Assembly: GCF_964355755.1 (NCBI RefSeq)
Contig: NC_092675.1
Span: 30,848,912-30,912,911 of the forward strand
Length of the DNA stretch: 64,000 bases
Direction: 5' to 3'
Source: Antedon mediterranea
Taxonomy: Eukaryota > Animalia > Echinodermata
The position numbers were made by a program, and so were the translations under genes. The notes beneath the pieces were generated by a model. That model had not been told where the DNA came from, searched no databases, and saw nothing but the letters and a program-made list of their open reading frames with translations. This document shows, one piece after another, positions 32,600-62,937 of this stretch (position 1 is its first letter; each line of letters starts with the position of its first letter).

Positions 32600-35007
32600 C
32601 TAATCAAATTCAACCCCTCTGGCCATCTTCCTCCTGAAAAATAAAATAATAGATGTTGTCTGGGTACCTTCTTAACACTAAGGCGCAGGATTGGTCATAG
32701 CAATAAATAGCAAACAAATAACTCCTTAAGCAACATTCTCAACACACTATAATATATCAGTGAATGATATCAATAGATAAGTCTTTTGGAAGCAAGTAAG
32801 AGTTGATTAATATTTAATTAAATCATTTTTAATAAAGACCAAGTTATTCTGGCATTGATAGAGGATAATTTGGTTTTTGAAATATGAGAACTTGTTCAGT
32901 GGCTCAAAAACAAATACAACATGTTCAACGAGAAAAATGAGTGTGGTGTGGTTGTAAGCAGAGAAATACCCAGACGAGGGTACATATTGACAAGGACAGG
33001 AAATTACTTAAATCGGCACAATAAAATAAACATAAAAAGACTAACTTTTTACTATTTGGATTGATGAGGCTTCTTCCGGGATCTTTAGCAGGTTTATTGA
33101 CAACCAATTGTTTAGTTTCCAAATCAGAAATGTTACTTCCAATTCCATCTTGAAATAAAAACAAAGACAATTTAACTATTACTGTACTAAAAACAATTGA
33201 CAAAAGTTACTGATTCTGTGTAATACACATGTAAGAAGTTTTTTGTTGGTCTGTCTACTCACTATCAAACTTTATGTGACAAAAAATGTGATGTGCCCAT
33301 ATATGGACATGATGATGTAACATCACTACCATATTGAGTACATCACTACTATATATGGGCACATCACACTTTTTTTGTCAAACTAGTTTGATAGTGTAGA
33401 CAGAGCTTTAGGAACGCATTGGCATACGTTATGTTGTTATTTTATTTGTTGATAGATAATCACCTTGCAACTTCTTTGAAGTGTTGCCTACATTCTTCAG
33501 TCTATCTCGATCTTTTTTTAAATCTTGAGGAGAAAAAACATATACATATAGTTATTGACCATTTTGTTATTGACCATCTAGTTATTGGCCATCTAGTTAT
33601 TGACCATCTAGTTTCCAAAAAAAAGCGCCCATGTCTGCAGAACAGAAAAGGACTTATGACTTTTTTAACTCAACAACCAAATCCACTTTTCTTGTTTACT
33701 TCTTGTGAATGTGAGCATTCATTTGTTTCCCTCAAAATTCCCAATGTATAAGTAGAAATAACTTATATTAACCTTTGACCTCCTGCTCTAGCTTATCCAT
33801 TCCAGCTGCTAGGTGAAATAAAATTTCTGTCAAATCAGACTTGCGTCTGCTCACAGTGGCTTCAGTTAATTCATAACATAAACATTTTGTTCCACTTCCC
33901 ACGGTTACCAAGACAACCTCTTCTGATTGCTTTGTTAGTGTTAGTTTGTTTTCATCAAAAGCTGCTTTTAATTGGCTGAAATATTCTTCATTGTTTGCAA
34001 ATCCCGACTCTTCTCTCTAAATAAAGACAAAATCGGCTTTTAAAAACTTTTGCTCTCAGCAAGATGTTCACAAAAATTTAAAAAATAAGGTTATGTGTTG
34101 AGCTATTTTCACAGTCGAGGCAGAGCACACATTACGGTGGTCGCCAGACAAACAGAATTTCTGTCAATAAATAATCAAATTTTAACTTTTATATTTTTAT
34201 AAAAAAAAACAAAGTATAATTTAGAGACTGTTTTTATACAACTAAGTAATCTGAACACAGAATTTAAAATGTTCATTTTTCTATCTAAATCGTCGCCATG
34301 TCCTCCGGGCTGGGAGGGGATGAGAACGATACTTACATGTAAGTTAAGTTCGGATATGTCCAACTGTTGCTGCCATAGGTTAATCCCATTTGTTGCACTA
34401 AAAACAATTTTTTTTAAACAATAACATTAAAAAAAAACTTTCTAGGCCTAGGTAGCTAGACCTAATTTAATTAATATCATAATTCAATTATCACAGCCAA
34501 TAAATGATGACTGACTGCAATAAAATGTGACTAATTAATCTTTGTAAACCGATGTATTATATTTTGTAAAATGTACCTTTTGCCTGAATAAAAAATAATA
34601 AATAATGACACATGATTGATATGTTTAGGAAAGCAAAATGGGATACAGAGGCATTATAGAGGGCGCTAGATAATAGTGTTCTAGAATAGTTAGGCCTAGG
34701 CCTTGAATTGAAAGCTAGAGGGTGTAGCGGACGGATCGCCTGTCGCCCAAGTACTACTTACTAACTTACTAGGCCTAGCTCTATTCTAGAAGTAGGCACG
34801 AAACCTTGTTTTCAACTAGTCTACTGCATTATTTTTTTCTTACTGAAATACCCATTCAAATTGAGTTGATGTGGTAAAACTTAAATATTTTATTCCCTCT
34901 GAGATAATCGTTGATCGCAAATTTGATGCATTGTTTGATTCGACAATCTTTGCTAAAGATTCCATGTTTTTGTTTTTAAAAGACCGCCCTCTATAATTGT
35001 CATTCAT
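32600..35007 (-). CDS. PAXX: PAXX (paralog of XRCC4 and XLF), 6 exons
   Basis: Exons 35007-34844, 34397-34337, 34016-33773, 33523-33464, 33148-33046, 32633-32600 stitch in frame. HATNGINLW resembles head-domain VTDAAELW; a coiled coil follows; C-terminus PGRSLINPNSKKRKMARGVEFD* matches the Ku-binding tail PGESLINPGFKSKKPAGGVDFD. Start may instead be ATG 34965. Confidence 0.85.
33249..33407. mobile_element. Harbinger-like MITE in PAXX intron
   Basis: tctgtctactcactatcaaact ... agtttgatagtgtagacagagct. Confidence 0.8.
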
Positions 35008-35427
35008 GATTTCAACTTTTTTTTTCACGCTGCTGCTCTAGCCCGCTACGTCACACGAGATGACTCATTCATTAGATGAAATCAAGCAGCAGTATAGTAC
35101 TACACTTTGACATTTTTGTTAAAATGGAAACTCGACTTTAATTTATAGGTACCACCTGTTGAATCCAAAAAACGGCTGGGAAAAGAGTCTAATGACAAAT
35201 CCCAAAGCATTTCTGGTATTTATGAGTCCCATGATATTACTATAATTCACTGTCAGATAATCATTGAATTATTATCAAAACAGTCCATTGAAGTTTTTGT
35301 TTGTAATAGGATACTTGAAGTATCTAGGCGTGATGAAGTGACCCCCAGACTTGACATTAGCAATAACAATTAGCGAGCAGCGTTTTTTGTAAGAAATATT
35401 CTGGTCATAATCGGTTTTTTCGCTCTT

Positions 35428-35850: not shown

Positions 35851-36406
35851 TGGAGGTAATTAAACTTATTTATTAGTTATATTAATTATTAATGTAGTTT
35901 ATTTTAGAGTTAGAGGTAATTTTCGGAGGGATGGATTTTCCGGGAGAAGTTTTATATTGTGTAGAGGCACATATTTATATTTACTAATTAATATTAAGAC
36001 ACAACTCCGTCTGGAGCCCAGACTAGGTACTTGTGTGCACGTATCTTAGAAATTATATATTATTAAATCCATGCGTTTCTGTTGTTAATTTTATATTTTA
36101 TACACTAAACAATCACAAAAATATAATTTTGATATTTTTAAAGATATGTTCATGCACTTGGATGTTTTCCAGTCCCACAAGCTTCATTCATTCAATCTTT
36201 TATTTTGGAATCTCTGCTCCATAGAAAGTAAAAATTACATATAAATGAAATAAAATAAACAAGACTAATTACTACTACTCATCTCAGGATGGCATTCCAC
36301 ATGGAGAACATTGTTTATAATCGTTGAGACTAAAACATTTTGGGTGGGGGATGAGTTAGGCAATACTTGGCACGTTAATCAATTTAAATGATCATTTTGA
36401 TGAAAC

Positions 36407-36653
36407 TGTAGTGCCGCTACACAGATGCTTAAGCGGAGCGCGTCGTTCTAAACACCTGGACGCGCTCCGCCGTGCGTATCTTGGAACGTCAAGTACGTTT
36501 GGGACACTTGAGAAGTCGACGACGGAAACTAAACCTATATTATTACTACTCACTTATTATTATCATACAAAGACTATTACAATGGTGAGTATTTTACGTT
36601 GTAGTCTTTTATCGTAGTTAAGGAACTAAACCAAGAGACTAGCAATCTCTTTA
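36407..36653 (+). repeat. 5' LTR
   Basis: Starts TGTAGTG, ends CTCTTTA; direct repeat of 40738-40984. Confidence 0.95.
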
Positions 36654-36654
36654 T

Positions 36655-36667
36655 TGGCGACGAGGAT
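36655..36667 (+). promoter_or_regulatory. Primer-binding site complementary to the tRNA-Ser(GCU) 3' end
   Basis: TGGCGACGAGGAT begins 1 nt after the LTR; it is the reverse complement of ...AUCCUCGUCG-CCA. Confidence 0.8.
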
Positions 36668-38860
36668 TAAAATTAAACGCGATATTTTTCTGGCGAAATA
36701 TGACGCCGAAAATACGCGAATCTGGACGTGCGTTGTTTATTTATTTACATTCAATGTATCGGCCCTCGCCAATTCATCACCGTCTCGAGGATAAGAACGT
36801 GAATGTTTCTTATAAGTTCATGTTCTCTCCGAGAGTTGGGGATGAATAGTAGATTAGGATTTATTATTTTTATTTTTTATATTTAATATTCGACGAATGA
36901 ACGATTGGCCTATACTAGATGAAACTGTAGTATAAGAATATTATTATTCATGCTCGTGACATGAATTTCATGCTTGTGACATGAATGTTCACGCTCGTGA
37001 CGTGAATGGGTTTTGTATGTTAACCCGCTGGACTCGTGATTCCAGAACGAAACGACATGGCCCGTGTTTCATGTCCGATTTCGGAAAATATACGATTAGG
37101 TTAGGCTAGGAAGTATTAGTTATCATATTAGTGGGCCAGTTGTTTACGTCGTTCCTTCACTGGAAGTCGGCAGTGTTGGAAGAATTTATTTATTTATTTT
37201 ATTAGTTTATCAGGAACCGCAAAAATGAATAAAAACTTTGCCTTTTTTGAAAAAAAAAAAAAATTTTTTTTTCATTAGAGGGAAGATGGTTGAGAATGTA
37301 TTTAAGGTATACTGGTCAATTGTATTAGGGTAGGCCTAGGCCTAGATCCTCCGAGTCTTGGGCGATAGTTTTTCGATATTGTTTCAGATCTCATCCAGGT
37401 CTTATTCCATTCGAACAAACTGCCGCGCAGTTCTTGGGCATCATACGATTGGCTAGGCTACAGCAACCAATCAGATCATTGCATTTGCATACTCGCTACC
37501 TGAGAGGGTCGTGCAGCGCGAGCTGTGCATTATCCAGGGAATGAAAATGCAAGCGATGATGACGCGGTTACGTGCGTACTCTGATTGGTTGAGCAATGAA
37601 AGAATTCTATGTACTAATAGTTTCTGATTGGCTATTTTACTTTACGGAAACATCCTATTTTTAGAATACTATTTTTAGGATGTGGATGTGAGTTTTAGTT
37701 ATACGCACGCCGGTATGCTCAGGCGAATGCTCAGAATTCTATTATTACGCGATTATTTACTGTTGGGTTGTAGTTGTTTTAGGAATCAATGAAGTGGACA
37801 TTTATTTGAGATTAGAAAGAATTTATTATTAGCTTACATTGTGATATTGTTCTGTGTGTTCTTTCTAAATGTGCCTACTATATTCATTGGTGACTAATTC
37901 AATCGAAAGATTCCAACGGTAAATTTAGTTCAGTCACAGTATAACTCGGTAATTCTGAACGAGTATACTAGAAGAAGGGCGAGTTTTATGGTAAACTAGT
38001 TCGCTCAATGTAAGAAGACTGAGGGAAATGGTTGGAGGTCGGAACGAGTTCTTGCACGTGATCGGGAGACGTAACATTAGTTGCGGATCTAGATAGCTAT
38101 ATGGCATCAACTACGTGCTTTATTCGGTGTTTGCTTATAACGAAGAAAGCACCGGCTCTGTTAAAAAAAAAAAATAATAATAATGCGCCGACATCGGCGA
38201 AAATCATAAAAGGATAGTACTGACGAGGTCTTTGAAGGGTCTGATCTTGAAGTTAATCCTAATAATCAGGTGACTTCAAAGAATGCGTCGATTAGTTTTA
38301 ACGGGGAGGAGGAGCAGTTATTCCTGACGTTAACTCTGTGTCGAATGTAACCACGGATAGGCGGTTTAATTCCTGTTCCAACTACGGTACTCCTAATGGG
38401 GATATCTGAAATCGCGACTCTCATTATCCGGGCGATGACAACATGCGTTTCGATGAACGAACTGGCGGCGAGTCCAATAGGTTTGTGCCTATGGAACGCG
38501 GTCGAGTTCCTTGGCGATCAATAAATCGCCAAGGGGACGCAAGAGATTGAGAGCCTGAACGACGGTATCCTAAATCGGGGTAGTAGAATGGGAATGTCGC
38601 CACGGGGGTACATCGACGGTAATCGCTATAAACGCTACTCGGACGATGTCGGTCAAGTTCGGACTGATTGTCGAGGTTTCGATTACAATGATCGAGATCG
38701 CGGTAATGAGGACAATACGAACGAGTACGTCCGAAGAGAGAGTAATGGCGGAAGTTTCGGACGTGATCCGCGCTGAGTTCATTATGTGAATAAGGACCAC
38801 TTGCGTGGTTGATACGGTCATAATGAAGAATGGCGAGGTGAGCGTCGGAAAAGACTACCT

Positions 38861-39110
38861 TTCCGCCCTCAGAGAAACCTGGAATTTTTCGGTCAAAATG
38901 ACTGGTACATTTTCTGGGATAGATTTGAGGGGTATGCCTGAATTAGTGGATGGAACCTGGCGGAGAAGAAGGAGGCTTTTCACTTAGGTAAGAAGGGGAA
39001 AGCAGCCATGTACTACTTACGTTGTACATTCTTCACGGCAGTGACATCACAAATAACTCGATAACTAGCTCTGAAGAGATGTTGGAACTCCTCTGGCGGA
39101 AACGATGATC
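38861..39110 (+). pseudogene. Decayed retrotransposon gag remnant
   Basis: LEFFGQNDWYIFWDRFEGYA*ISGWNLAEKKEAFHLGKKGKAAMYY fits the Gypsy gag pattern F.G..DW..F..RFE..A...GW...EK......G.A..YY; contains an in-frame TGA and a downstream frameshift. Confidence 0.7.
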
Positions 39111-39217
39111 ACTATTTTTGTTACAGGCGCCAGAGTTTTCGTCCCAACAATTTGTAATCGAGGGGTAGAAATACTATCTTGTACTAAACTTGTGTTTTGC
39201 CTCTTAATGTTTTACAG

Positions 39218-40446
39218 ATGGATAACTGCACTACTTCCGATCGAGTAACGGTGGAGGAGGAATTGTTCCTGCTGCAGGTGGAAGACTTCCCGCCGTTGGG
39301 CAAACCAGCTGCGAAACGAAAGTCTCCACCTTCACCTACTGGATTGGAAGAAGATGATGTGGCGATGGAGGTCGGGGACCTAGATCCGCCAGTAGTTGAG
39401 GGCAGAGAGACGCCAGAGGTCTTGGCAGGATCGCCGGAGAGGCCAAAGTCCACCTCCATTTTTCGTAAAGAGTTGCTTCCCGCCGCGCCAGCCGTGAAGG
39501 TATGGCGAACTCCGGGAAGTAAGGAGTCGGACTTTGCGTGCCGAGACGTCCGTCTCGTTGGTACGGCGACCAGTGCTGTTCCACCTAGTGCTGGGGCGGT
39601 ACCAAAAGTTAAATCTCAGGGAAAGGCCGACAAACGGTCGAAAGACAACAAAAGACCTCATCCTGAAGGCGGTCAGAGGGAATCGGGTAAGCGGTCACGT
39701 CGGGCATTCCTGTGTCCAGTGGCAGGATGTGGCCGGGTGCCCGAAAACCCAAAACAACACCTGACGCACCACATACCGCCATTCATAACGGAAACATCGC
39801 CGGAGGTATCGTCGACCACCTCATCTCGGCGCTGGAGTTTCATCCAGGAGTTAGTGAAACTCGTTCCGGAGTGCGGCGGGAGTGTCACCAAGGCGGTAGC
39901 ACTTTTCAACGCCGAGGGGAGAATCCAGCCTGGATTCTTCTTCACCAAATCTCTAAGGAAGATGATGGAGTCGATGGGCGAGGCGGCGGGGCTCGAGATG
40001 CCCGAGTCGAACACTCTATCGCCGTTAGTGTCACCGCTGGGTCTGCTCCACACTCGGTGTCTCCTTTTCCTGGTGGCGAGAGCCACTAGGGATAATAAGG
40101 GGGCATTTGTGGAGCTGTGCCAGAGGTATGGTAGGCCTACCTCGGCGGAGCCCAGACGCCGTCGATTTCCTAAGCCAACTGGACCACTACGTCAACGGAC
40201 CGGACCATCATCACGCCAAGCACGGTGGCAACCGAACGTGGAAAACAACATCCATTCACCCACGCCATTGTTATGCCAGTTAAGGCGGGCCGACAGAGTT
40301 GCTCTGCGGTCGGCATTCAATGCCAATCGGGAGGTGGTGGAGCGTTTGGCTCAGCCGGGAAGTGGCCAGCTGAGGGCAGCGGCGGTTAGGATGTTGGAGG
40401 GATTCTTGGAAAACCTCCACTTCCACGCCCAGTTTGCCTATGAATA

Positions 40447-40447
<1 letters not shown>
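39218..40447 (+). CDS. Unknown ~409-aa cargo protein of the LTR element with a CxxxxC...HxxHH zinc-finger-like motif
   Basis: Uninterrupted GC-rich ORF; ATG directly after the acceptor ttttacag; basic NLS-like patches; CPVAGCGRVPENPKQHLTHH; an A-tract of ~32 nt begins 3 nt after the stop. Confidence 0.7.
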
Positions 40448-40486
<39 letters not shown>

Positions 40487-40724
40487 AAGACCAAATTAAT
40501 GAAAATTTATTTAAATTAATTTTAAAATTAATTCCAATTAGTTCATTTTTTTAAACAAAATTCTTATCGGGTTCTTGGTAGTTTCTTTTTCTGGAATTCT
40601 ATGTATGTATGTTGTGTTATTGTTGTGTTTAAAAAAAAAAAAAAAAGAAGAAAAATGAAGTGGAAGAAAAGAAAGAAAGAGCAAGTACGTGTGTAGAAGA
40701 ACAAGAGGGAAGACAAAAGAAATA

Positions 40725-40737
40725 AAACAAGGAGGAA
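40725..40737 (+). promoter_or_regulatory. Polypurine tract
   Basis: aaaacaaggaggaa abuts the TG of the 3' LTR. Confidence 0.75.
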
Positions 40738-40984
40738 TGTAGTGCCGCTACACAGATGCTTAAGCGGAGCGCGTCGTTCTAAACACCTGGACGCGCTCCG
40801 CCGTGCGTATCTTGGAACGTCAAGTACGTTTGGGACACTTGAGAAGTCGACGACGGAAACTAAACCTATATTATTACTACTCACTTATTATTATCATACA
40901 AAGACTATTACAATGGTGAGTATTTTACGTTGTAGTCTTTTATCGTAGTTAAGGAACTAAACCAAGAGACTAGCAATCTCTTTA
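40738..40984 (+). repeat. 3' LTR
   Basis: Identical to the 5' LTR; followed by the AAAC TSD. Confidence 0.95.
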
Positions 40985-41289
40985 AAACATCATTTTTTTT
41001 ATTTTACTACCCAACATTGTTGCTAAAATAACAACTTAATATTAAATCGCTCCGGTTTTTGCGTGCACGTACGACGTACGTACAACGTCCCGTGTGTCTG
41101 ATCGGCAAAAAAATGCTTTTGCCGCCCTCTACGTTTTTACTTGTTGCAATTAATGATGACGACACTTTTTTATGGCGAACAATTAAATCCGATCCCACAC
41201 CACCACCACCACCACGTAAAGTGCGGAGGAGTTGTTGAAAGGTATTTGAAATCTATCGTGTCTTAAAACATAGTATTTCAATTGTTATA

Positions 41290-41545
41290 TGCTAGGCGGC
41301 CTATAGTATTAGCTAGGCTAGGCCCTACTTTAGTGAGAGTGTAGGCTAGCCTAGCCTAGCCTAGTCTAGACCTAACTAGCTAGTGCTAGGGGCTAAGCGG
41401 ATCTAGGCCTAGCCTAGGCCTAGAGAGCTAATCTAGGCTAGCTAGCTAGGCCTAGGGCCTAGGCTAGGCCTAGGGCCTAGGCTAGGCCTACTAGCTAGTA
41501 GGCTAGGCCTACTAGCTAGTAGGCTAGCTACTAGCTAGGCCTATG
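41290..41545. repeat. Low-complexity CTAG/AGGCCT palindrome cluster
   Basis: Dense ctag and ctaggcctag motifs in the putative 5'-UTR intron of CMPK1. Confidence 0.8.
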
Positions 41546-42333
41546 CCAAGTGCACTGTTTTTAATTCCACCAGTGAGGTATACCTCCCTGATTCCACTGC
41601 CTCAAGTTTTATTCAAATGCTAGACCCTAGTAGAGTCTAACTCTAAGGCTTACCTTACAACAGTTCCATGCGTAAATAAATGCCTATCTAGGCCTATACC
41701 TAGGCCTAAGGCCTACTGTAGCTCGGTAGATCTATGAATGATACAGAATTTATTTTTAACATAACTTTGATTTTGTTTGTTTGCTTGTTTTTTAGATTTT
41801 TTTTATTACTGATAATTAATGATGTTGAATTTTATGGGTATTTCAAAAGAAATCAAATCAATATTAATCATATTAAATTTTCAATTCAAATAATTATAAT
41901 AACAAATATCCACAATGTAGTACAAAATATTAAAAATAAATCTTATTTCATCACCTCAATACATTTCAATACAAATAGGCTGTATCGATGATGGCGACCT
42001 TAGCAAAGTCAGATGAAGAACAAAATATTTTTGTATAATGATACAATGATGAATATCAAGTTGAAAATTAATCGTCTTGCAGCAGCAGAGAATTCACTTT
42101 TACTTCATTCTCCTTTTCTTAGCCACAGCTATTAATAGGCAAAGATTATGTGATGAAATGCAACACAACAATAAAATACATAAAGATTAGATAACAATTT
42201 GCATTAAAATACTAAAAGATAATATTACTAGTACAACAACCTCTTGCATCCGTTCATCTGATCTCAAATCGTGTGTGTTTGTTTTCAGCATTGTATGTTG
42301 GTAACTTTTGTTCGCTTTGCAAGTCGGATCATA

Positions 42334-45300
42334 ATGTCATCTGAGAAGCCGTTGGTAGCATTTGTGCTTGGAGCCCCTGGAGCAGGAAAGGGTACACAAT
42401 GCTCTAAGATCGTTGAGGTAAGTTTCATTCACACTGAATGTTCTAATTAATATTCTACTATTGTCAAGATAAGATAAGATAACTTTTATTGATCCTCAAC
42501 AAGGAAATTCATTGCTCGTCATAATAACAAAGAAAACACAATAAAAACAAATATAGCATAAAACCATTCATATAAAAACATCTAAAAAATTACAATATAA
42601 AATTATCTTCTTGACTTCCTGTTGTACTGGATGATACCGAAGGGAATAAAGGATTTAGCAAATCGATTTGTTTTCACACTGAGGAGCCTCAATCTACCAC
42701 TTGGATTAAGTTGGTCTATGATCACTTTGTGGAGAGGATGAGAGGCATCCGACTCAATGCGTTCGAAATCTTTCTGGAGGTGTTCTAGGTGCACATCGGT
42801 AAAGGAAGGCAGTTCCAGACCAATCATTTTACCAGCCCGACGAAAGTTTCAAGGCGTCCTTTATTCCCTCCGGTAACATTACCAGCCCAACAGGAGAGGC
42901 AATACGTCCAAACACTACATATAACGGATCTATAAAACGAAAGTAACATCAAATCACAGGAGTTAAATTTATATAAAGTTCTCATACAATACATTCTGGG
43001 ATTTAATTTTTTGCTGATGTAGTCTATATGGTCTCCCCAATTCAGTTTATCATTGAAAACAATTCCTAGATACTTGTACTGGTCAACAATTTCAATTTCT
43101 TTACCTTTGATAGTGATTGGTTGAAAATTAAATTTATGTTTAGTCCTAAAATCAATGATCATCTCCTTTGTTTTTGATGCATTTATTTGGAGATAATTAT
43201 CGTCACAAAATTTTACAAATCTTTGTATTTCGCTACGATAATTTTCATCATTGTTTGAAACTATGAGACCAATAGTACTAGTGTCATCAGCGAATTTAAC
43301 AACGGGGCAAAGCTCATCATTTAAAGATCTGTAATCGGCCGTATACAAGGAATATAATTTAGGTGCGTTGACAGTACCCTGAGGAACACTGGTGTCAGAG
43401 GTTACGATTTCTGACTTAACACCATTAATATTAACAAATTGTTTTCTATCACAAATGAAATTTAAAACTAAACGAACAATCGGACGGGGAAACTCCATAT
43501 TCAACATTTTGTCTGCTAAGATATGGGGTTGTATGGTATTAAACGCAGACTGAAAATCAAAATACATAATACGTGCCGAGTGGCCTTTCTTTACATTATC
43601 TAGATGTGAATACAATTTATGTAATTTAAAATAAATCGCATCACTGGTACTACGGAGTGATCGGTAAGCAAATTGCAACGGGTCTAACACTTTTTCAGCA
43701 TAAGGTTGCATAATTTTTAAAATAATACGTTCCAATATTTTCATCGCGACAGACGTGAGTGCAACAGGTCTCAAATCATTCATGCTGTTAATCTTAGGTT
43801 TCTTAGGTACCGGTATTATGCATGAAAGTTTCCAAATATCCGGGAACGCATGATAAGAAAGACACATATTGAAAATAAATGTAAATATACCATCAAGGTG
43901 AGGAGAGCAGACCTTAAGTACTCGTGGTGGGATTCTATCCGGCCCAGCAGCCTTCGATGAATTGAGTTTCATGAATTCGTTATGTACATCAGAAATGCTT
44001 ATACTAAATTTGGGATCATCTTCAGTCACCCGACACAAGCTAAATAGGGCCTCTCTTTCTTTTTTAAAATCATGAACATTAAAACGGTTATAAAATTCAT
44101 TTAACTCATTAACATATTGCACAGTAACATTCGGAATCGAGGTGGGTGTATTACCACCGTTTGTGTAACCACTCATAAGTTTAATACCCTGCCAAACTTG
44201 TTTCATATTATTAGACCTGAAGTTATGTTCAACTTTTTTCCTATAAATGTTCTTCTGTTTCATTATTTCAGATTTAATCTCTCTAGTCAATATTTTCATA
44301 CGATTAGAGTCGCCCATCTTAAAGGCTTTACGTTTCTCACACAACAGTAATTTAACGCCTTTCGTGATCCATGGCTTGTTATTAGGGTAGATTTTCACTT
44401 TTTTAACTGGAACGCATTTATCAATACAAAAGTTTATGTACGAGCTCACTGCATAAGTAATACTATTCAAATCTTCATCCTCCGTAAAAATATCCCAATC
44501 GGTAGATTCAAATTCCGCTATCAGGGCTTCCTCGGCTTCAGGAGACCATTTACGTACATTAATAATTTTTGGTTGGCATGTCTTATTTAACGGGCGATAT
44601 TTAGGACTGAGTAAAATCAAATTATGATCAGATTTGCCCAAGTTCGGTAGTGGGGTCGAAATATAGGCATCCTTCACACTAGAGTAGCATAAATCAAGAA
44701 TCGCGTTGTCCCTCGTTTTACATGTAACATGCTGATAATATGTGGCCGTTGTTTTCTTGAGCTTGCATCTGTTGAAATCGCCATTGATAATTACAAGCGC
44801 CTCAGGGTGACTACACTCAATACCTTCGATAATTTCTGCGATCTCATTTATAGCAGGCTTTTTAAGCTTTTTGTTAGGTATGTATACCATAACATTGATA
44901 ACATGCGAGAACTCTCTCGGAAGATAGTAGGGGCGAATACCAACAACCAGCACTTCCGAGTGTGGCGAACATTTATGAAGCTTAAGCGTAGAGTTATTTG
45001 GATGACAGTATTTCTCATTAATGTAGAGGCAAAGACCACCACCGCCATCTTTGTTCGCTTCGGCTGTACGATCCCCACGAACAGATTTAAAGCCAACTAC
45101 TTGAATATGTTGATCGCTGTGCTTATCGCTCAGGTGGGTTTCCGTGAATGCAAGTAAGCTGGCATTCCTAAAATCGCTGAAGTGTTCGACGTTTGCTCTG
45201 AGTAAATCGACTTTGTTATTCAAAGATCTAACATTTCCAAATATTAAAGATGGTATAAAAGGCTTACATTTCCTTCGTTGTAGTCGTTTTCTGACCCCAC

Positions 45301-48300
45301 CAGCCTTGCCCCTTTTCCGAGGCCTGCGACGTTGTATCTCAGATGGTAATTCAACGTGTGCCGGTAGCGGTGAGGTCGACCTCTCGCCCATGGAATGCAA
45401 ATCAGATGACGTGTACGCAATTCCACCGCCCGGCTTACTCAATCCACACAGTAAGAACATCCAATAAATCAGCAAAAAATACAGAAATTTCAAAACTTTC
45501 ACATACAACATAATGTATAAATCAAATGACTTCTTCCACAATACAATACAGTCCAAATATACGAAAATAACGTCAAAAAATGAGGAACAACAGTGAGACG
45601 AGCTGTGTCGCCGTGTTGCACAGCTCCACTAACAAGTCAAGTAATGGTTGGTAGCTTTTAAGTTTTTGTGGTGATATACCTTGTTTTATAATGTTGCTAT
45701 CATATTTGGGCACATCAAACTTTTTTTGTCAAACTAGTTTGATAGTGTCAGAGCTTTATAATTTTTTTTAACAATGCTTTTTTTAGAATCAACTTAAATG
45801 TGTAATTTTGTATGTAGGAGTTTGGTTATGTTCACTTATCAGCAGGTGATTTATTAAGAGCAGAAAGAAACAAGGAAGGATCCGAATATGGCGAGCTAAT
45901 ACAGACACACATTAAGAACGGCTCTATTGTGCCGGTTGCAATTACGATAAGTCTCATCGAAAGGGTATGCTATGCAACTATGTTACATTATTTTGTGTTT
46001 GCCTCAGCACTGTGGTGCTAGTATGTTTGCCACGAGGAGAATTCTTTCTTTACCAGCATGTCCGCAAGTGCGCCTATGGTTTTAGAATAAGAATTTTGAA
46101 TAATGAAAATGATCTTGTTAGGTGTACTACGAACTATCTGTTACGATCTTCAAATGTCTTCACTAAATGGGAGAAAATCATATTTTATTGTGATTTTCCA
46201 TTTTGTTTGTTGTATATATGGAATTTTTATTCTTAAATAAAATGATCAATAAATATTGGTCTCAAACAGTTTAGAAAACAGGTTTTAGCAGTAGCGTCTG
46301 CACACAAAAACCTTAACATTTGTCTTTTAAGCTGGGTGGGAAGTGTTTACTTACAGTGGGAGGCGTCGCCTTGCTCTGCTCCCCATAACTACATCCCTAT
46401 GCAGAAAGTTTTTCATCATGACATGACGTCAGTAGCAATATTTAAAGTAATAAAGTCCATTATATAACATAATGATTTCTTTACTAGGCCATGAATGAAA
46501 GTACTGTTAAAAAGTTTTTAGTGGATGGTTTTCCACGAAATGAAGACAATTTAACCGGTTGGGACCAACAAATGACCGACAAAGTTAATCTCAAATTTGT
46601 ACTGTTTTTTGAGTGCTCAGAAGAGGTAAATTTATTTTTCTTTTATTTCATTAAAAACATATTTGTACAAGCGAAAAACATATCAGGTATAGATATTGCA
46701 CATGTTACATATGGTCCTGTTTTTTTAAAGTAATAGATTAAAAAACATTCATAAAAAGACATTAAAACTGACTAATAAAACTGTAAAAATGGCCTTTCTT
46801 TTTGCTGTTTATGTTTTAAATGCAAGGTATATATTTTGGTGAAATGCTTGTTGTCAAAAAGTCTTGTGAATAACTGATTTGTAATTTCCAAACTTGACCC
46901 TGTCTCCATGTTATTAACAGGAATGTGTAAAAAGGTGTTTAAAAAGAGGCGAGGAAGCCGCTAAACAAGGAACAGCAGCAAGAGCTGACGATAACGAAGA
47001 GAGTCTAAAAAAGAGGTAAATCTTGTCTTCATAAACAGTGCTGTTTTTCTATAGTATTAATAGGCCGCAGATAATTTTATGCAGGATTTGGAGGTCGAAA
47101 GTTGTTCTTCCTAGACCTAAGTATTCATTAGTTATGTTGCTCCCTATCTGGCAGAGTAATACTGTGTATCTTGCCAACATTTTAATGTAAATAAAAATAT
47201 TTACTAACAAAGCAATGTGTTCTAAATAATATGAATTAAATGACTACAATTTAATTTTAGGTTTAATACACACATGTCATCAACAATGCCAATTATTGAG
47301 CATTATGCCAAACAGAACTTGGTGGAGAAAGTAGAGGCTAATAGACCAGCAGACGAGGTAAGTAAATAACAAAGCAAATGTATCAACTAAACATAAAGAT
47401 ATCAGAAAAAAAAATCATGCATTTGTACCGCAAAATGTGCGTACTATGGCATTCAATATTAATCCCTTTTGTAAAACAGGCTGATATAATTAACTTTTTC
47501 TGAGAACTAGGTCGTGTTCGTACGGTGGTTAAAATAAGCGCTTAATTTCACCCATGCCTCGGGTTATAAATTGAGTGTTGTTCGTACTTAAATGCTTAAT
47601 CGACGAATCACAAACCGGAAATTACGTTTTAAGGTCAGTTGTCTTTACAACCTACGACCCCATTTTCGCACGCTAGTTTCGTGTTGTATATTTTTTACTC
47701 GCGATCTTTCTTTACAATAACAATTACTTGCTACCTTTTACACTGCTTATCCTTGCGACAAACCTTATGCCTCTTAACGCCGAAATATGCCTTCTCCTGA
47801 CGACCATTTATTTTACTTGACGAAGAATTTGAGCCCAATGTTACACGAAACACCACCGACCAGCTAGGCCTACTAAGCGGTCTACACCAACAAGGACAGC
47901 ACCAGCTGACGATCGCTCTCGAAGCGTGTATGGAAGAGCTTCGTTGGAGAAATGACGGGCCTAGGCAGCGAACGTTTGTCAAAATTTGATACATTGCCTC
48001 TATCGGAGATTTATTATCCTCGAAGGCCGAGTATAATTGGATTATCGCTGAAATAACCTGCAAATTTGGTGAACATTTTGCCTCGAATTTTTTGTAGCCT
48101 GAGGAAAAAGTTAATTGGGTCACGCGAACGGAAATCGGGAATAAGCTGGTATTTTCAACCCCTACGAACAGGCCCCTAGTCCTTCTAATCATTGTTAATT
48201 GACAGACAATATCCTTCAAACTAGTTTTGTTCTTTTAAATGTATAAACCATTTCCATACGAAATTCTATCTACTATGAATATACTGAATTATTCATTTCT

Positions 48301-48399: not shown

Positions 48400-49381
48400 G
48401 CAAATTTTAAGGTTTTGTAGATTTTTAGAAACTTGTGATGTAATAAATAGTAATATAATTGGGTATCTTTGACAAGATAAACAGATTATAACATATTGAT
48501 AAGGATAGTAGAACATATTGATAAGGATAGTAGTGCATATTGATAAGGATAGTAGAACATATTGATAAGGATAGTAGTGCATGTTGTATGCATGTACTTG
48601 ATGCATCTTGTGGAATACAACATTCAGCATTGACATTTTATTTCCTACTCTAATATTCTGTTTCACTTTTTTTAATAATATAGTATACTAGGATATTCCA
48701 AATATCTATTTTATGTTTAACTTTTACTTAATTCCTTGCTTTTTGGTTGACATGGTTGACATATTATAAATTGTATTATTTTAGAATGTAAAACAACTCA
48801 ATTTTTAACCTACTAAAGCTTAAATAACATAAAAGATGAACTTATATTAAGTACCACCACCGAGTTTTTTGTTTTTTTTTACATTTTTCCTGAAAATTAT
48901 TTATAGGCCTAATTTTGTAGAGAGAAAAGAATTATCAAAAATAGCATAACTATGACAAAATAATGATTTAGCTGCTAAAGCTGTTGACAAATTCATTTCA
49001 AATGGATTTGTGAATATTTGGATAAACCTAATTTAAAATGCAAAAGCAGATATTTACACTGCTATTCTATTTTTAACATATTTATAACAAATGTTCATGC
49101 TACAGTATATTAAGGAATAATCAATATCATACATCTGCCATCAGTGTGTAAACTAACTCTACTGAGATATTCATTTAAGTACATGCTATAATATCATTGA
49201 GCATATACATTCAACTCAATTGTAAACTAACTCTACTGAGATATTCATTTAAAGACACGCTATAATATCATTGAGCATATACATTCAACTCAATTGTAAA
49301 CTTTACTCTACTGAGATATTCATTCAGACACTAGACCTACAATTGTTGACGTTTTGTAAAAATACTGCATAGACTGTATAC

Positions 49382-51489
49382 TACTTTAAAAACATTAAGT
49401 CAGTTCATCCCTTGTCTTAAATTGATACTTTACTTTAAAAACATTAAGTCAGTTCATCCCTTGTCTTAAATTGATACTTTACTTTAAAAACATTAAGTCA
49501 GTTCATCCCTTGTCTTAAATTGATACTTTACTTTAAAAACATTAAGTCAGTTCATCCCTTGTCTTAAATTGATACTTTACTTTAAAAACATTAAGTCAGT
49601 TCATCCCTTGTCTTAAATTGATACTTTACTTTAAAAACATTAAGTCAGTTCATCCCTTGTCTTAAATTGATACTTTACTTTAAAAACATTAAGTCAGTTC
49701 ATCCCTTGTCTTAAATTGATACTTTACTTTAAAAACATTAAGTCAGTTCATCCCTTGTCTTAAATTGATACTTTACTTTAAAAACATTAAGCCAGTTCAT
49801 CCCTTGTCTTAAATTGATACTTTACTTTAAAAACATTAAGTCAGTTCATCCCTTGTCTTAAATTGATACTTTACTTTAAAAACATTAAGTCAGTTCATCC
49901 CTTGTCTTAAATTGATACTTTACTTTAAAAACATTAAGTCAGTTCATCCCTTGTCTTAAATTGATACTTTACTTTAAAAACATTAAGCCAGTTCATCCCT
50001 TGTCTTAAATTGATACTTTACTTTAAAAACATTAAGCCAGTTCATCCCTTGTCTTAAATTGATACTTTACTTTAAAAACATTAAGTCAGTTCATCCCTTG
50101 TCTTAAATTGATACTTTACTTTAAAAACATTAAGTCAGTTCATCCCTTGTCTTAAATTGATACTTTACTTTAAAAACATTAAGTCAGTTCATCCCTTGTC
50201 TTAAATTGATACTTTACTTTAAAAACATTAAGTCAGTTCATCCCTTGTCTTAAATTGATACTTTACTTTAAAAACATTAAGTCAGTTCATCCCTTGTCTT
50301 AAATTGATACTTTACTTTAAAAACATTAAGTCAGTTCATCCCTTGTCTTAAATTGATACTTTACTTTAAAAACATTAAGCCAGTTCATCCCTTGTCTTAA
50401 ATTGATACTTTACTTTAAAAACATTAAGTCAGTTCATCCCTTGTCTTAAATTGATACTTTACTTTAAAAACATTAAGTCAGTTCATCCCTTGTCTTAAAT
50501 TGATACTTTACATTAAAAACATTAAGTCAGTTCATCCCTTGTCTTAAATTGATACTTTACTTTAAAAACATTAAGCCAGTTCATCCCTTGTCTTAAATTG
50601 ATACTTTACTTTAAAAACATTAAGTCAGTTCATCCCTTGTCTTAAATTGATACTTTACTTTAAAAACATTAAGTCAGTTCATCCCTTGTCTTAAATTGAT
50701 ACTTTACTTTAAAAACATTAAGTCAGTTCATCCCTTGTCTTAAATTGATACTTTACTTTAAAAACATTAAGCCAGTTCATCCCTTGTCTTAAATTGATAC
50801 TTTACTTTAAAAACATTAAGCCAGTTCATCCCTTGTCTTAAATTGATACTTTACTTTAAAAACATTAAGTCAGTTCATCCCTTGTCTTAAATTGATACTT
50901 TACTTTAAAAACATTAAGTCAGTTCATCCCTTGTCTTAAATTGATACTTTACTTTAAAAACATTAAGTCAGTTCATCCCTTGTCTTAAATTGATACTTTA
51001 CTTTAAAAACATTAAGCCAGTTCATCCCTTGTCTTAAATTGATACTTTACTTTAAAAACATTAAGTCAGTTCATCCCTTGTCTTAAATTGATACTTTACT
51101 TTAAAAACATTAAGCCAGTTCATCCCTTGTCTTAAATTGATACTTTACTTTAAAAACATTAAGCCAGTTCATCTCTTGTCTTAAATTGATACTTTACATT
51201 AAAAACATTAAGTCAGTTCATCCCTTGTCTTAAATTGATACTTTACTTTAAAAACATTAAGTCAGTTCATCCCTTGTCTTAAATTGATACTTTACTTTAA
51301 AAACATTAAGTCAGTTCATCCCTTGTCTTAAATTGATACTTTACTTTAAAAACATTAAGTCAGTTCATCCCTTGTCTTAAATTGATACTTTACTTTAAAA
51401 ACATTAAGTCAGTTCATCCCTTGTCTTAAATTGATACTTTACTTTAAAAACATTAAGCCAGTTCATCCCTTGTCTTAAATTGATACTTT
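49382..51489. repeat. 49-bp satellite array, ~43 copies
   Basis: Unit tactttaaaaacattaag(t/c)cagttcatcccttgtcttaaattgatactt, nearly invariant. Confidence 0.97.
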
Positions 51490-51846
51490 TCACATTTTTA
51501 ACCGTTTAAAGATAAAAACAGTTATTGCAATAGGTCCATATAGTATTTTGTAAATAAAATGAAGTGTGTGACCTTAAATTAGGTCGAAAAACGTAGGTCT
51601 AGTGTCTTTAAGTACATGGTATAATATATAGCATGACACTCAACCCAAATAATGTTAAATATTTTATTTTACATCTGAGGTGAAAAATAATAAAAAATAC
51701 TAACAACTAAAAAAGGTTATTTAAATCATAATACAGTACAGTCAACTAACCAAAAGGTTCCAAATTCATTAATCCATATTTGGATTATCAACATTTCTGA
51801 AAACCAGACAGGAGAGCCCAATGGTGAGTTGACTGTATATAAAAAC

Positions 51847-57896: not shown

Positions 57897-58634
57897 TTTA
57901 AAGCCTATTTTTACTCTGACAAAAACAAAGTTCACTTTGCGTTTCCACGTTCGTACACATACACATGGATGTGCGTTCCTATTTCAAGAGGGCGCAATTG
58001 CAATTGGGAATAATTCGATAATCGATATCACGAAGAAGCTGCTTTTTTAGAAGATTTTGTTGTTTGAATGAAATAATATCTAATTTCTCTTATTTACATA
58101 AATCAAACAAATCTGTATTATATATTAATGTAAGGGTCAAAAACAACTTTTATCGAAATCCGAAATCCTGAGGAATTGGTAAAATAACTGAACGACGGGA
58201 ACTAATTGACACACCGCCCTCAATTATTGAATATCAATCAATTATTTTTTGTTGTTTAGCATTTGTTTTGGAATGTAATGTTAATGGTCTCTGAAACTCC
58301 TGGGACTCTTGAATATGACGGATACAAATGAATGAAGGCGATTATAACGTGCTAGGTCTAGTTGATAAGTTAAATTACAATATAATATTATAATACACTC
58401 GTTTATTGATAATTATTCTTGACTACCAACAAGGTATGCTGCTTGTTCTAGCTTAGGCTCTAGGCTAGCCAGGCCCAGGGAAAACAACAGCTGCTGCATC
58501 TTTTACTTTTAGTTAGCGGCGCGGACGTGGCAGTTTTCGTGGCAGGAGTACCTTCTGGATTGATTGAGAGTTCAGTAGAGAGGCAGTGCTTTTCAGTCTG
58601 TTCAATTTCTTGCTGTTCGTAGTATTTTCTCGTC

Positions 58635-59114
58635 ATGTTTTCACCAAGTAAATCAAGTATAAAGGAAGCAAATGAACACTTTCAGGCCTTGTACAATAGA
58701 ATCAGTGAACTAGAAAAGACCGTAAAAGACCAAGCAGAAGCAATTATAAAACGAGATGACGAAGAACAACAACGAATGAACGCTGTTACTCAAAAACATC
58801 AAGAAGAAGTTACGAAACTAACCACAAATTTAGAAACAGCAGAAAAGAAAATTGAAATATTATCACGAAACCTTCAAGAAAAAAGTGCAGTTACTACAAC
58901 CTTGCAATATAAATGTCAAATAATAACTGACTTGTGTGCTAGTATCCCTGCTTTTGAATCGTACTTAACAACTCTTAAACAAATTGAAAGCTTAAATTCA
59001 GGAGAATGTAATCACATTGGCCATGGTGGAGCAAAGAGAGTTTTACATAACAATATTGATTCCATTGAATTGAACAATGAAGATGTGGAAATGGATGGCC
59101 AGACAACTGTGTAA
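58635..59114 (+). CDS. VMAC: Vimentin-type intermediate filament-associated coiled-coil protein homolog, single coding exon
   Basis: IKEANEH..., KTVKDQAE, coiled coil and C-terminal GQTTV resemble human IREANAH, RTVHAQAE and GTTV (PDZ-binding tail). Head-to-head with BRIX1, ~740 bp apart. Confidence 0.75.
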   Translation: MFSPSKSSIKEANEHFQALYNRISELEKTVKDQAEAIIKRDDEEQQRMNAVTQKHQEEVTKLTTNLETAEKKIEILSRNLQEKSAVTTTLQYKCQIITDLCASIPAFESYLTTLKQIESLNSGECNHIGHGGAKRVLHNNIDSIELNNEDVEMDGQTTV

Positions 59115-60446: not shown

Positions 60447-62937
60447 ATGTATTTATTTGGAATGTATTATCTACGTATACTTCTGAGCATTCATTTTATT
60501 TGGTAAGTTTTCAACTGACGAACGGAAATCGGAAATAGTTCGTAGTAAATAAAGGAAATTGATTAGGCCTATTATAATCATTGACATTAGGCCTACTCTA
60601 TATATTTGTTTTAATTATGTGCGTATATATCATTTTTAAACATTCATGTACGTCTATTAGGGATCGATCCGTCTATTAGTTTTATACGGATAGAGAAGAA
60701 AGGTATTGTTATTTTTTAGTGTAATCATAGTCAATTAGATTCGAAGATTCTTCCTCATTTTATTTTTAAAATACATCAAATTTCAATTAACTAATTCAAT
60801 TCTGAATGTAACGTTCTTATTAATAAATATATGGTGTTACAGTATTATTTGTATACCTTATCCGTCAACAAATATGTAAGAAAAAACCTATAGCTATGGT
60901 TATGCCTAAGTGTGCATTGTTGTTGTATCTTTATTACCATAACATAGAGTGGAAAGCTCAACAAGCATTTTGCATGACAAGTGAGAAGTCAACGTACTGT
61001 GTACATAATGCTTGTTTCGATGATCCGTTTAGTTTCAATCACGCTAACTGACGGTTAAAATATAGTTTCAAATACAATACAATCGAATGACTTTGGCAGG
61101 CCTAAATCGTACACCAAACGTCAAATTTAATGTTAAATTTAATTCTTTTTACAGCACCTTTCAACTAGTTCATTCTGCACACGGTGAGTTTAAAGTAAAA
61201 TAACTTTTACACTTTTAGTTTTTGTTTGTTTCATTCACATATATTCAACAAAATAAATATTTACATTACAGAGATTTTACAGAGACAATTAATTGTCTGT
61301 AGTCCCTTTAGCACAAAACACATATAATCACAAAGAAAAAAAGATATAGGCAAAAGTATAAATACATATAATATAAAACGAAATTTTCGTTTTTCTATGA
61401 AGAATACTAAAACCATAAAGGATGATAAATTGAGGAGTTTAGTATTATTCTTGTTGCTTTGTATGTACCTATATATTAACTTTGTCACTATAATGTTGAA
61501 CCTTTCAAAAGGAATTCATTTAACTTTAGGCTACATTACAAAAGAAACTTGAACTTGGGTTAATTGATTTGGCTTTATTTGCATCTTATTAAAAATAAAA
61601 TAGTTTTAATTTGTTTCTAAATTATAGGTGAATTCAAGGAAGGGACAACATCGCAACCATTACAATGTAAATACAGAATCATTTAAATTTTTAAAAACAG
61701 GAGGCTTGCCATGATGACGAATGCATAGGGCCATTTCAACATTATTCAATCAAAGGGGTATAGGCCTACCATATGACGACGTGACGAATACATATGGCCA
61801 TTTAATCAAATGGGTTCTCAGACGGACGCATTCTTATTAATGTGTCGTTAAGTTCATGAAATAGCATAGGAAGTCTGTAAACCATCGACAACGTTTTTTT
61901 TAAATGTAGGCCAATGATATTTACATTGTGATGTTTGATCGGTTCTTATAATTATAATTTTTTGTTATTGATTGATATCGATTAGCCATCCACTGGTCTT
62001 CACATTGTAAGAATGGAGGTACCGGGTTCTTTGGATCGTTCTGCCATTGTCCACCAGAATACGAAGGCCGCTTCTGTGAAAGCAAGAAGGACGTTAGTTG
62101 TGGCAACATTCAACACGGGTTTTGGGTCCAAGATGACTGTATGACTTGCTATTGTATTCATGGTACTATCAAATGTACGGATAACAGTCCTAAATGCAGT
62201 AAGTATTATTCACGGTCTATCAAATGTTCAAATAACAATCCTAAATTCAGTAAGTATGTCTAGCAATGGAGAGACTCGGACGCGATATTTCTTGTCGTGA
62301 ATAAGTTGGGGACCCCTCATGAAACGTCACAAAATAAACATGAATATTCTACGAAAAAAAATCGCGAACCGGACACTGATATAATGCACAGGAGGCTAGT
62401 AAAGGAACAGGCAATTTTCTCATTTTATTCGTAGAACAAATTTAAATTGCGAATGTATTCATTCTGTTCATGAAAAATTTAACTATATGACGTGAGTTTT
62501 AATGTAAAAATTTAGTACAGTAAGTCATGTTTGCGATGCACCATTTAATTTTTTTTTTTAAAGAAGAGAACATTAGTCGAGAGTGGGTCTACATTTCGTT
62601 TGTAGTCATTCTCAACTGCATTTTTTGAAATCGCAAATGTTTTGATGATCATCACGTCACAAATATTTCTTTTTTTTAATCAGTCATATTCCCACTTATT
62701 GGTTTAAACTACATCTCCCAATACCGTACTTATTTAACACACATTCTTACACAATGTGATTATTAATTCATTGTAGAGACACAGTATGGAATGGGCCTGG
62801 ATGAACTTCTACAACTACAGATCAAGGACTTGCCGACGAGGGAAACATCACAAACAACAGCACATAATAACGGCAGTTTATCAACAACATCATGTTTGCT
62901 TATTATAATAAATTTAATAACATTTTTAATAATTTAG
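60447..62937 (+). CDS. EGF-CFC family (Cripto/Cryptic/oep-like) Nodal co-receptor, 5 exons
   Basis: Exons 60447-60502, 61155-61183, 61628-61666, 61986-62198, 62777-62937 stitch in frame: signal peptide; HCKNGGTGFFGSFCHCPPEYEGRFCE (EGF-like); CGNIQHGFWVQDDCMTCYCIHGTIKCTDNSPKC (CFC); GPI-type tail NNGSLSTTSCLLIIINLITFLII*. Confidence 0.88.

What the first reader, a model, noticed from the sequence alone, without database searches (positions are those of the whole stretch)
36407..40984. Freshly inserted LTR retroelement that lost gag/pol but preserves an intact cargo gene
Seen: identical 247-bp LTRs, AAAC TSD, tRNA-Ser PBS and PPT (very recent mobilisation); gag survives only as a stop/frameshift-ridden remnant; no protease, RT, RNase H or integrase motifs; yet a 1.23-kb ORF in the env position is fully open. 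Inference: a non-autonomous Gypsy-derived family mobilised in trans that is under selection to keep expressing an accessory protein (e.g. anti-silencing or parasite-of-parasite function). This is my best candidate for an undescribed system.
Basis: partly seen in the sequence, partly recalled or inferred. Interest (0 to 1): 0.85.

Follow-up and report, generated by a model that had tools for sequence, protein, structure and literature searches.

The report
Crinoid retrotransposon keeping only third gene
This is a young, defective jumping gene, likely from a feather star, that has lost its copying genes but kept intact its family's own third gene; that gene encodes a zinc-finger-like protein whose relatives carry a TatD nuclease domain missing here, and it likely acts as a regulator, though selection to keep it is not shown.

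Summary
The element is real: identical 247-bp LTRs, AAAC target duplication, tRNA-Ser(GCU) primer site, a broken gag remnant, no pol, and one open 409-codon ORF. The ORF is not a captured host gene and not env. It is the lineage's own third gene. Its zinc-finger-like motif and helical core match ORF3 of complete gag-pol-ORF3 Gypsy elements, where ORF3 ends in a TatD nuclease domain. Five crinoid versions lack TatD; three of them end in a helical hairpin instead. It is probably spliced from an ATG inside the LTR; no RNA shows this. Several near-identical copies seem to exist with the frame open. Selection is unsettled: one diverged copy of the same layout is frameshifted and its pN/pS is near 1, while changes between open copies fall only in the disordered part. 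Three other loci in the lineage also lack most or all of pol beside ORF3, and a published rotifer element (TelKA2n) has the same layout. This scan noted the TatD-ORF3 clade before in sea urchins. Verdict: new variant of a known kind, moderate interest.

The parts
36403..36406 (.). Left target-site duplication (AAAC)
36407..36653 (+). 5' LTR, 247 bp, starts TG, ends TA; TATA-like motif at 36536
36582..36590 (+). ATG (36582-36584) directly followed by a consensus splice donor (GT at 36585); predicted leader exon supplying ORF3's start codon. Unspliced, this ATG opens an 11-codon frame
   Evidence: the extra N-terminal Met of gene model XP_071966282.1; splicing is inferred
36655..36666 (+). Primer-binding site complementary to tRNA-Ser(GCU)
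36667..38189 (+). Long non-coding leader, likely holding the packaging signal (inferred)
   Evidence: no ORF over 83 aa; no Pfam hit in the three + frames
38190..39090 (+). Broken, truncated gag remnant; capsid-homologous stretch 38858-39016; likeness to longer gag relatives ends near 39060-39090
   Evidence: the 5' boundary is approximate
39182..39217 (+). Predicted branch point, pyrimidine tract and AG acceptor directly before the ORF3 ATG
   Evidence: inferred from sequence
39218..40447 (+). ORF3, 409 aa: disordered acidic then basic N-terminus (1-160), C-x4-C-x9-H-x3-H-x-P motif (166-187), confidently folded helical core (161-305), C-terminal helical hairpin (351-407); no TatD, no transmembrane segment
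40700..40737 (+). Polypurine tract
40738..40984 (+). 3' LTR, identical to the 5' LTR
40985..40988 (.). Right target-site duplication (AAAC)

Best explanation
This is a young, internally deleted Gypsy-type LTR element that lacks pol and most of gag, is likely copied by Gag/Pol from a related helper, and keeps its lineage's own third gene, which is probably spliced from an ATG in the LTR and likely encodes a nuclear nucleic-acid-binding regulator without the TatD nuclease its relatives carry. Shown: the anatomy, the homology to ORF3 of complete gag-pol-ORF3(TatD) elements, the absence of TatD, and an open frame in the majority near-identical contig. Inferred: mobilisation in trans through the retained LTRs, primer site, leader and purine tract (about 0.9); the spliced message (about 0.75); purifying selection on the folded part in the currently active sub-family (about 0.55); a role in handling the element's own RNA or chromatin, like CERV or Rev, with the zinc finger and core as the binding module and the hairpin as an adaptor in place of TatD (about 0.45).
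For: phmmer over 1.84 billion representatives gave 16 hits, covering residues of about 150-305; 5 of the 15 distant representatives carry Pfam TatD behind this core. 13 of 19 fetched loci also match gag or pol profiles, and the other 6 have under 1 kb upstream of the match; L007, L008, L009 and L017 are gag-pol-ORF3 with TatD. A profile of 10 non-crinoid ORF3s hits the window protein at E 7.5e-22 among 5 targets. L006 has the same LTR-end and primer-site junction. The five crinoid cores form one side of a 100/100 branch. The C-terminal hairpin is shared with two Antedon paralogues at about 27% overall identity. A second open copy exists at 98% identity with an extra first Met. In run X1 one unbroken contig spans 39030-40441 with 4 other letters and no gap inside the ORF, at depth 1685 against about 300 for unique flank. 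AlphaFold block pLDDT is 83-98 over residues 161-300. There are basic NLS-like motifs and no membrane segment.
Against: A 3687-bp contig in run X5 with the same pol-less layout has a 1-base insertion at codon 183, at about four times the depth of that run's single variants, so a frameshifted version may also have multiplied. Against it there are 12 non-synonymous and 6 synonymous changes in codons 1-189, pN/pS 0.67-0.92, p 0.29-0.53; 31 of 71 differing places were not shown. ORF divergence from that contig (about 4.4%) is above the leader's (2.7%) and only somewhat below gag's (6-8%). An ORF of this composition stays stop-free by chance in 41% of simulations at 2.3% divergence and 17% at 5%. 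No helper with pol was seen. No function of the core is shown, and the tree is unrooted, so loss of TatD versus never having it is not settled.
Confidence: 0.68

Rival explanations
1. Neutral hitch-hiker: an ordinary deletion derivative in which ORF3 lay outside the deletion and is still open only through youth and luck.
For: Frameshifted ORF in the X5 contig; pN/pS not below 1; 8-41% chance of staying stop-free at 7-2.3% divergence; older 11-16% diverged pieces carry gaps and skips; ORF3 variation in rotifer elements was mostly neutral (PMC5408684 section 3.6).
Against: 7 stops in the best gag frame (299 codons) against 0 in 409 ORF codons; 5 of 5 fixed changes between open lineages lie in residues 1-140, p 0.005, a test chosen after seeing the data; donor and acceptor motifs are both in place; the simulation ignored indels, so it overstates survival.
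Confidence: 0.35
2. Division of labour: the pol-less family supplies ORF3 protein in trans to gag-pol helpers whose own ORF3 is decayed or absent, so the two form a two-part retrotransposon.
For: The majority contig in X1 runs unbroken from the gag remnant through the ORF, with no sign of a near-identical ORF3 joined to a different upstream sequence; the diverged ORF3 pieces look decayed; contigs with longer gag exist at about single-variant depth. L004, L005 and L014 also place ORF3 beside gag with most or all of pol missing.
Against: No helper sequence with pol was seen; contigs drop rare variants and 8 loose-end rows were hidden; complete relatives carry their own ORF3; other Antedon ORF3 paralogues exist.
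Confidence: 0.15
3. The ORF is a captured host gene or an envelope gene.
For: It lies in the env position, has a probable env-like spliced message and is followed by an A-run.
Against: Relatives with DNA context lie in Gypsy elements; no signal peptide or membrane helix, maximum 19-residue hydropathy 1.54; no Pfam family above threshold.
Confidence: 0.04

Closest known systems
TelKA2n, non-autonomous LTR family of the rotifer Adineta vaga (PMC5408684; abstract, passages and section 3.6 read)
   Same: [quoted passage not shown]
   Different: Its ORF3 is env-like; here it is a soluble zinc-finger-like and helical protein from a TatD-bearing lineage.
Juno and Vesta LTR elements with DEDDy-exonuclease or GDSL ORF3 (PMC5408684; passages)
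   Same: Non-env ORF3 after pol; the parent lineage here likewise carries a nuclease domain in ORF3.
   Different: The nuclease fold is TatD, not DEDDy, and the window's version has no nuclease domain.
Gypsy elements with HhH-Gag, PHD-tailed integrase and TatD ORF3
   Same: Homologous zinc-finger-like motif and helical core, homologous capsid, same primer-site junction as L006.
   Different: TatD is absent and a helical hairpin ends the protein; gag is broken and pol is gone.
CERV of C. elegans Cer1 (PMC10309623; abstract read)
   Same: Accessory nuclear protein from a spliced message of an LTR retrotransposon; a model for what ORF3 may do.
   Different: No homology was tested or seen; CERV's RNA-export role is shown, this protein's role is not.
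Group II (HxH) TatD nucleases: YcfH, YjjV, TATDN2, TATDN3 (PMC10085689; abstract and one results section read)
   Same: Relatives' ORF3 has the HxH motif and the fold (Z 27.9, rmsd 3.0, 255 aligned to YcfH).
   Different: The window's protein has none of this domain.

Membership tests
Ty3/Gypsy LTR retrotransposon | Direct LTRs with a short target duplication | tested here: met
   247-bp identical LTRs, 4-bp duplication; ends TG..TA rather than TG..CA
Ty3/Gypsy LTR retrotransposon | tRNA primer site and polypurine tract | tested here: met
Ty3/Gypsy LTR retrotransposon | Gag capsid homology | tested here: met
   remnant only, E 1e-6 to a profile of five relatives
Ty3/Gypsy LTR retrotransposon (autonomous) | Pol in the order protease, RT, RNase H, integrase | tested here: not met
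   no pol match in six frames; met in relatives L007, L008, L017
Named Gypsy clade (Mag, C-clade, MolGy and others) | RT phylogeny against reference elements | not testable with these tools
   the element has no RT and no reference set is held
Gypsy lineage with TatD ORF3 | Zinc-finger-like motif plus helical core in ORF3 | tested here: met
   E 7.5e-22 among 5 targets; alignment
Gypsy lineage with TatD ORF3 | C-terminal TatD domain | tested here: not met
   no Pfam hit and 0 of 4 motifs
Env-bearing (errantivirus-like) elements | ORF3 with signal peptide and transmembrane anchor | tested here: not met
   hydropathy scan
Env-type subgenomic splicing | Spliced message from a 5' donor to the ORF3 acceptor | tested here: inconclusive
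   motifs present and a gene model has the extra Met; no run on record as RNA
Classical C2H2 zinc finger | C-x2/4-C-x12-H-x3/5-H | tested here: inconclusive
   C, C, H, H nearly invariant but the spacer is 9; Pfam C2H2_ASCIZ E 0.19, below cut-off; profile hit to YY1 finger E 0.014
LARD/TRIM non-coding derivatives | No protein-coding capacity (definition recalled) | tested here: not met
   open 409-codon ORF

The most novel reading that the evidence does not exclude
A two-part retrotransposon: an accessory-gene-only family keeps spreading because it supplies, in trans, a nuclease-free ORF3 protein (anti-silencing or RNA-export factor) to gag-pol helpers that have lost their own, and pol deletion with ORF3 retention recurs in this lineage for that reason.
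Probability: 0.15. Interest if true: 0.82.

Novelty: new variant of a known kind. Interest (0 to 1): 0.52.

Why it matters
It ties an orphan protein to a widespread marine-invertebrate Gypsy lineage whose third gene usually carries a TatD nuclease, and shows that the part kept across the lineage is the zinc-finger-like and helical core rather than the nuclease. A family that keeps only ORF3 is a natural test of whether retrotransposon accessory genes act in cis for their carrier or in trans for helpers, which is open for most non-env ORF3s. It also shows that some database 'TatD family hydrolases' of bacterial symbiont assemblies are probably host retrotransposon genes.

Tried and rejected
No whole genome is held for this window, so copies could not be collected or flanks compared. 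No RNA holder was listed; X5 is only guessed to be RNA and its depth pattern resembles DNA, and no donor-to-acceptor joint is among the 15 of 17 joints shown; this is no evidence on expression. Insertion polymorphism was not resolved: the stretches laid held at most one LTR. The word-index search for full-length relatives of the gag remnant found none among 193 candidates. Viral contigs gave no relatives. Atlas hits were under 0.9 (DUF3435 0.86) and a weak RNase HIII hit (E 0.2) was set aside. No complex prediction was obtained. CpG decay explains only 6 of 26 listed gag-region differences. Literature: TatD with retrotransposon and Gypsy (1 paper), with 'LTR retrotransposon' (2), with retrotransposon (21), and searches gave no listing that describes TatD in LTR elements or this family; most were seen as listings only. 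PMC6238403, PMC12440569, PMC13524379 and PMC6962438 were searched by passages. Repbase, Dfam, subscription papers and unread supplements of the mollusc and annelid surveys could hold the lineage under another name.

Full report
Observation. Two identical 247-bp repeats at 36407-36653 and 40738-40984 are flanked by AAAC on both sides. The 12 bases at 36655-36666 are the reverse complement of the 3' end of tRNA-Ser(GCU) as listed in a supplement row of PMC13524379, and a purine tract precedes the 3' LTR. The only long frame is 39218-40447, 409 aa. Pfam sees nothing in the three + frames of the 5' internal region. A profile from five related Gag proteins hits about 55 codons at 38858-39016 (E 1e-6 over six frames), while a profile from three Pol proteins finds nothing. 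No other copy lies in the window.

Host and copies. The one close protein hit is a 98% identical Antedon mediterranea gene model, XP_071966282.1, with 7 residue differences, so it is another open copy or allele; the window is most likely Antedon or a close relative. Nine runs from four studies hold parts of the stretch. In X1, which may be the window's own sample and so is not independent, near-identical internal contigs have depth 1415-2046 against 298 for the unique left flank, roughly five to seven times higher; depth is not a copy number, so this only indicates several copies. One contig runs unbroken over 39030-40441 with 4 other letters and its only gap before the ORF. The window copy differs from these majority contigs at 8 letters in about 2,980. 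A second organism has matching pieces in 30 of 30 bins. Contigs in X1 and X5 match the gag remnant (86% over 358 bases in X1) and then continue for hundreds of other letters, so longer gag relatives exist; whether they carry pol was not seen.

What the ORF is. phmmer against 1.84 billion representatives returned 16 proteins, matching over residues of about 150-305. The alignment conserves C166, C171, H181, H185, P187, R205, P262 and H278, and AlphaFold models residues 161-300 with block pLDDT 83-98, the N-terminus as disordered, and a C-terminal helix pair at lower confidence. Five of the 15 distant representatives carry a Pfam TatD domain behind the core. Using six TatD-type relatives as query gave 19 loci. 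Thirteen match gag or pol profiles (built from some of the same loci) and the other six have under 1 kb upstream. L007, L008, L009 and L017 are Gypsy elements with gag, pol and a third ORF ending in TatD; 9 of 10 ORF3 frames examined keep all four TatD motifs checked, and one modelled relative aligns to YcfH at Z 27.9, rmsd 3.0 over 255 residues. A profile of those 10 ORF3s, with no crinoid sequence in it, hits the window protein at E 7.5e-22 among five targets, and L006 has the same LTR-end and primer-site junction. So the 'cargo' is the lineage's own ORF3. The five crinoid proteins (two Anneissia, three Antedon-type) lack TatD and form one side of a 100/100 branch in a 24-row tree of the core; the tree is unrooted, so loss is inferred from the wider spread of TatD forms, not shown. 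The three Antedon-type proteins share a C-terminal hairpin (E 3e-7 and 2e-5 among five targets). There is no signal peptide or membrane segment, and there are basic NLS-like motifs, so it is not env.

Expression, inferred. The LTR has an ATG at 36582 directly followed by a donor matching 8 of 9 consensus positions, tied best among 166 GT sites, and the ORF's ATG directly follows a branch-point-like motif, pyrimidine tract and AG. Joining them would give Met-Met-Asp, which is how the database model of the other copy begins, whereas the genomic codon before the ORF is Gln. This fits env-style subgenomic splicing, which PMC5408684 states is typical of ORF3s. No RNA data bear on this here.

Selection. 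For: the best gag frame has 7 stops in 299 codons and the ORF none in 409; after setting aside two changes private to the window copy, all 5 differences from the other open copy lie in residues 1-140 (p 0.005, chosen after the fact). Against: the X5 contig with the same pol-less layout has a 1-base insertion at codon 183 and a depth about four times that run's single variants; over codons 1-189 it differs by 12 non-synonymous and 6 synonymous changes, pN/pS 0.67-0.92, not significant (40 of 71 differing places were shown, and this stretch is mostly disordered and compared with a broken copy). Its divergence is about 2.7% in the leader, 6-8% in gag and 4.4% in the ORF (counted). Substitution-only simulations leave the ORF open in 41%, 27%, 17% and 8% of 600 runs at 2.3, 3.5, 5 and 7% divergence. 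I put selection in the active sub-family at about 55%.

Mechanism. The most likely account is an internal deletion from mid-gag to just before the ORF3 acceptor, which left all cis signals and the ORF3 splice unit intact. The RNA would be packaged and reverse-transcribed by a tRNA-Ser-primed helper. ORF3 protein is likely nuclear and likely binds the element's RNA or DNA through the zinc-finger-like core, which in relatives would aim the TatD nuclease and here would recruit partners through the hairpin. CERV, a spliced accessory protein that exports Cer1 genomic RNA (abstract), is the closest functional model; no homology is claimed. Rivals are neutral hitch-hiking (0.35) and complementation of ORF3-less helpers (0.15). 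L004, L005 and L014 show that pol loss beside ORF3 recurs in this lineage, which fits either selection or a simple bias for central deletions.

Novelty. The layout has a published precedent in TelKA2n and nuclease ORF3s in Juno and Vesta. My paper searches found no description of TatD-bearing LTR elements or of this family, but Repbase, Dfam and subscription papers were not searchable. This scan had already noted a TatD-ORF3 Gypsy clade in sea urchins and other TatD-type ORF3s in flatworms; a look-up by this protein's sequence found nothing. What is new here is the nuclease-free crinoid form, its identification through the conserved core, and its presence as the only open gene of a young defective family. 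Verdict: new variant of a known kind, interest 0.52.

Noticed in passing
window 33771-35037 (-) and 41153-46730 (+): The element sits between two apparently divergent host genes: a PAXX-like gene (Pfam E 6.9e-6 at 33771-34016; likely first exon near 34843-35037) and an adenylate-kinase-family exon at 46488-46730, with a possible first exon about 170 bp after the 3' LTR. It may affect their promoters.
   Followed up: partly
L005 (whole), L004 1-2835, L014 1-1989: Further pol-deleted members beside ORF3: L005 joins gag and protease to the integrase PHD tail and keeps an open 755-codon TatD frame; L004 has gag's end about 750 bp before an open 598-codon TatD frame; L014 is similar but its ORF3 match is partial.
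   Followed up: partly
P0012, P0013, P0014, P0033; L016-L019: Proteins named 'TatD family hydrolase' in Thiodiazotropha and Sedimenticola assemblies belong to this ORF3 family; L017 is a full Gypsy element, so these are probably host-animal contamination.
   Followed up: partly
L002, L005, L007, L008, L017: The lineage has a PHD finger at the integrase end (5 loci) and a helix-hairpin-helix motif at the Gag start (L005, L007, L008, L017; mostly near or below Pfam cut-off).
   Followed up: partly
window 39281-39298: An N-terminal (D/E)FPxL motif is shared only with the two Antedon paralogues that also have the C-terminal hairpin; its resemblance to short motifs of RNA-regulatory proteins is recalled, not tested.
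   Followed up: no
window 42824-45628 (-): A 934-codon open non-LTR reverse-transcriptase frame (RVT_1 E 4.7e-28), probably a LINE inside the right-hand host gene.
   Followed up: no
window 35989-36311: Very high-copy short repeats directly left of the element; summed depth hundreds of times the unique flank.
   Followed up: no
window 61976-62260 (+) and 58623-59114 (+): An exon with a Cripto/CFC domain (E 6.1e-8) and a 163-codon coiled-coil frame.
   Followed up: no
window 49147-51492, 2963-3648, 5864-6464: Tandem arrays with periods of about 98, 52 and 90-95 bp.
   Followed up: no
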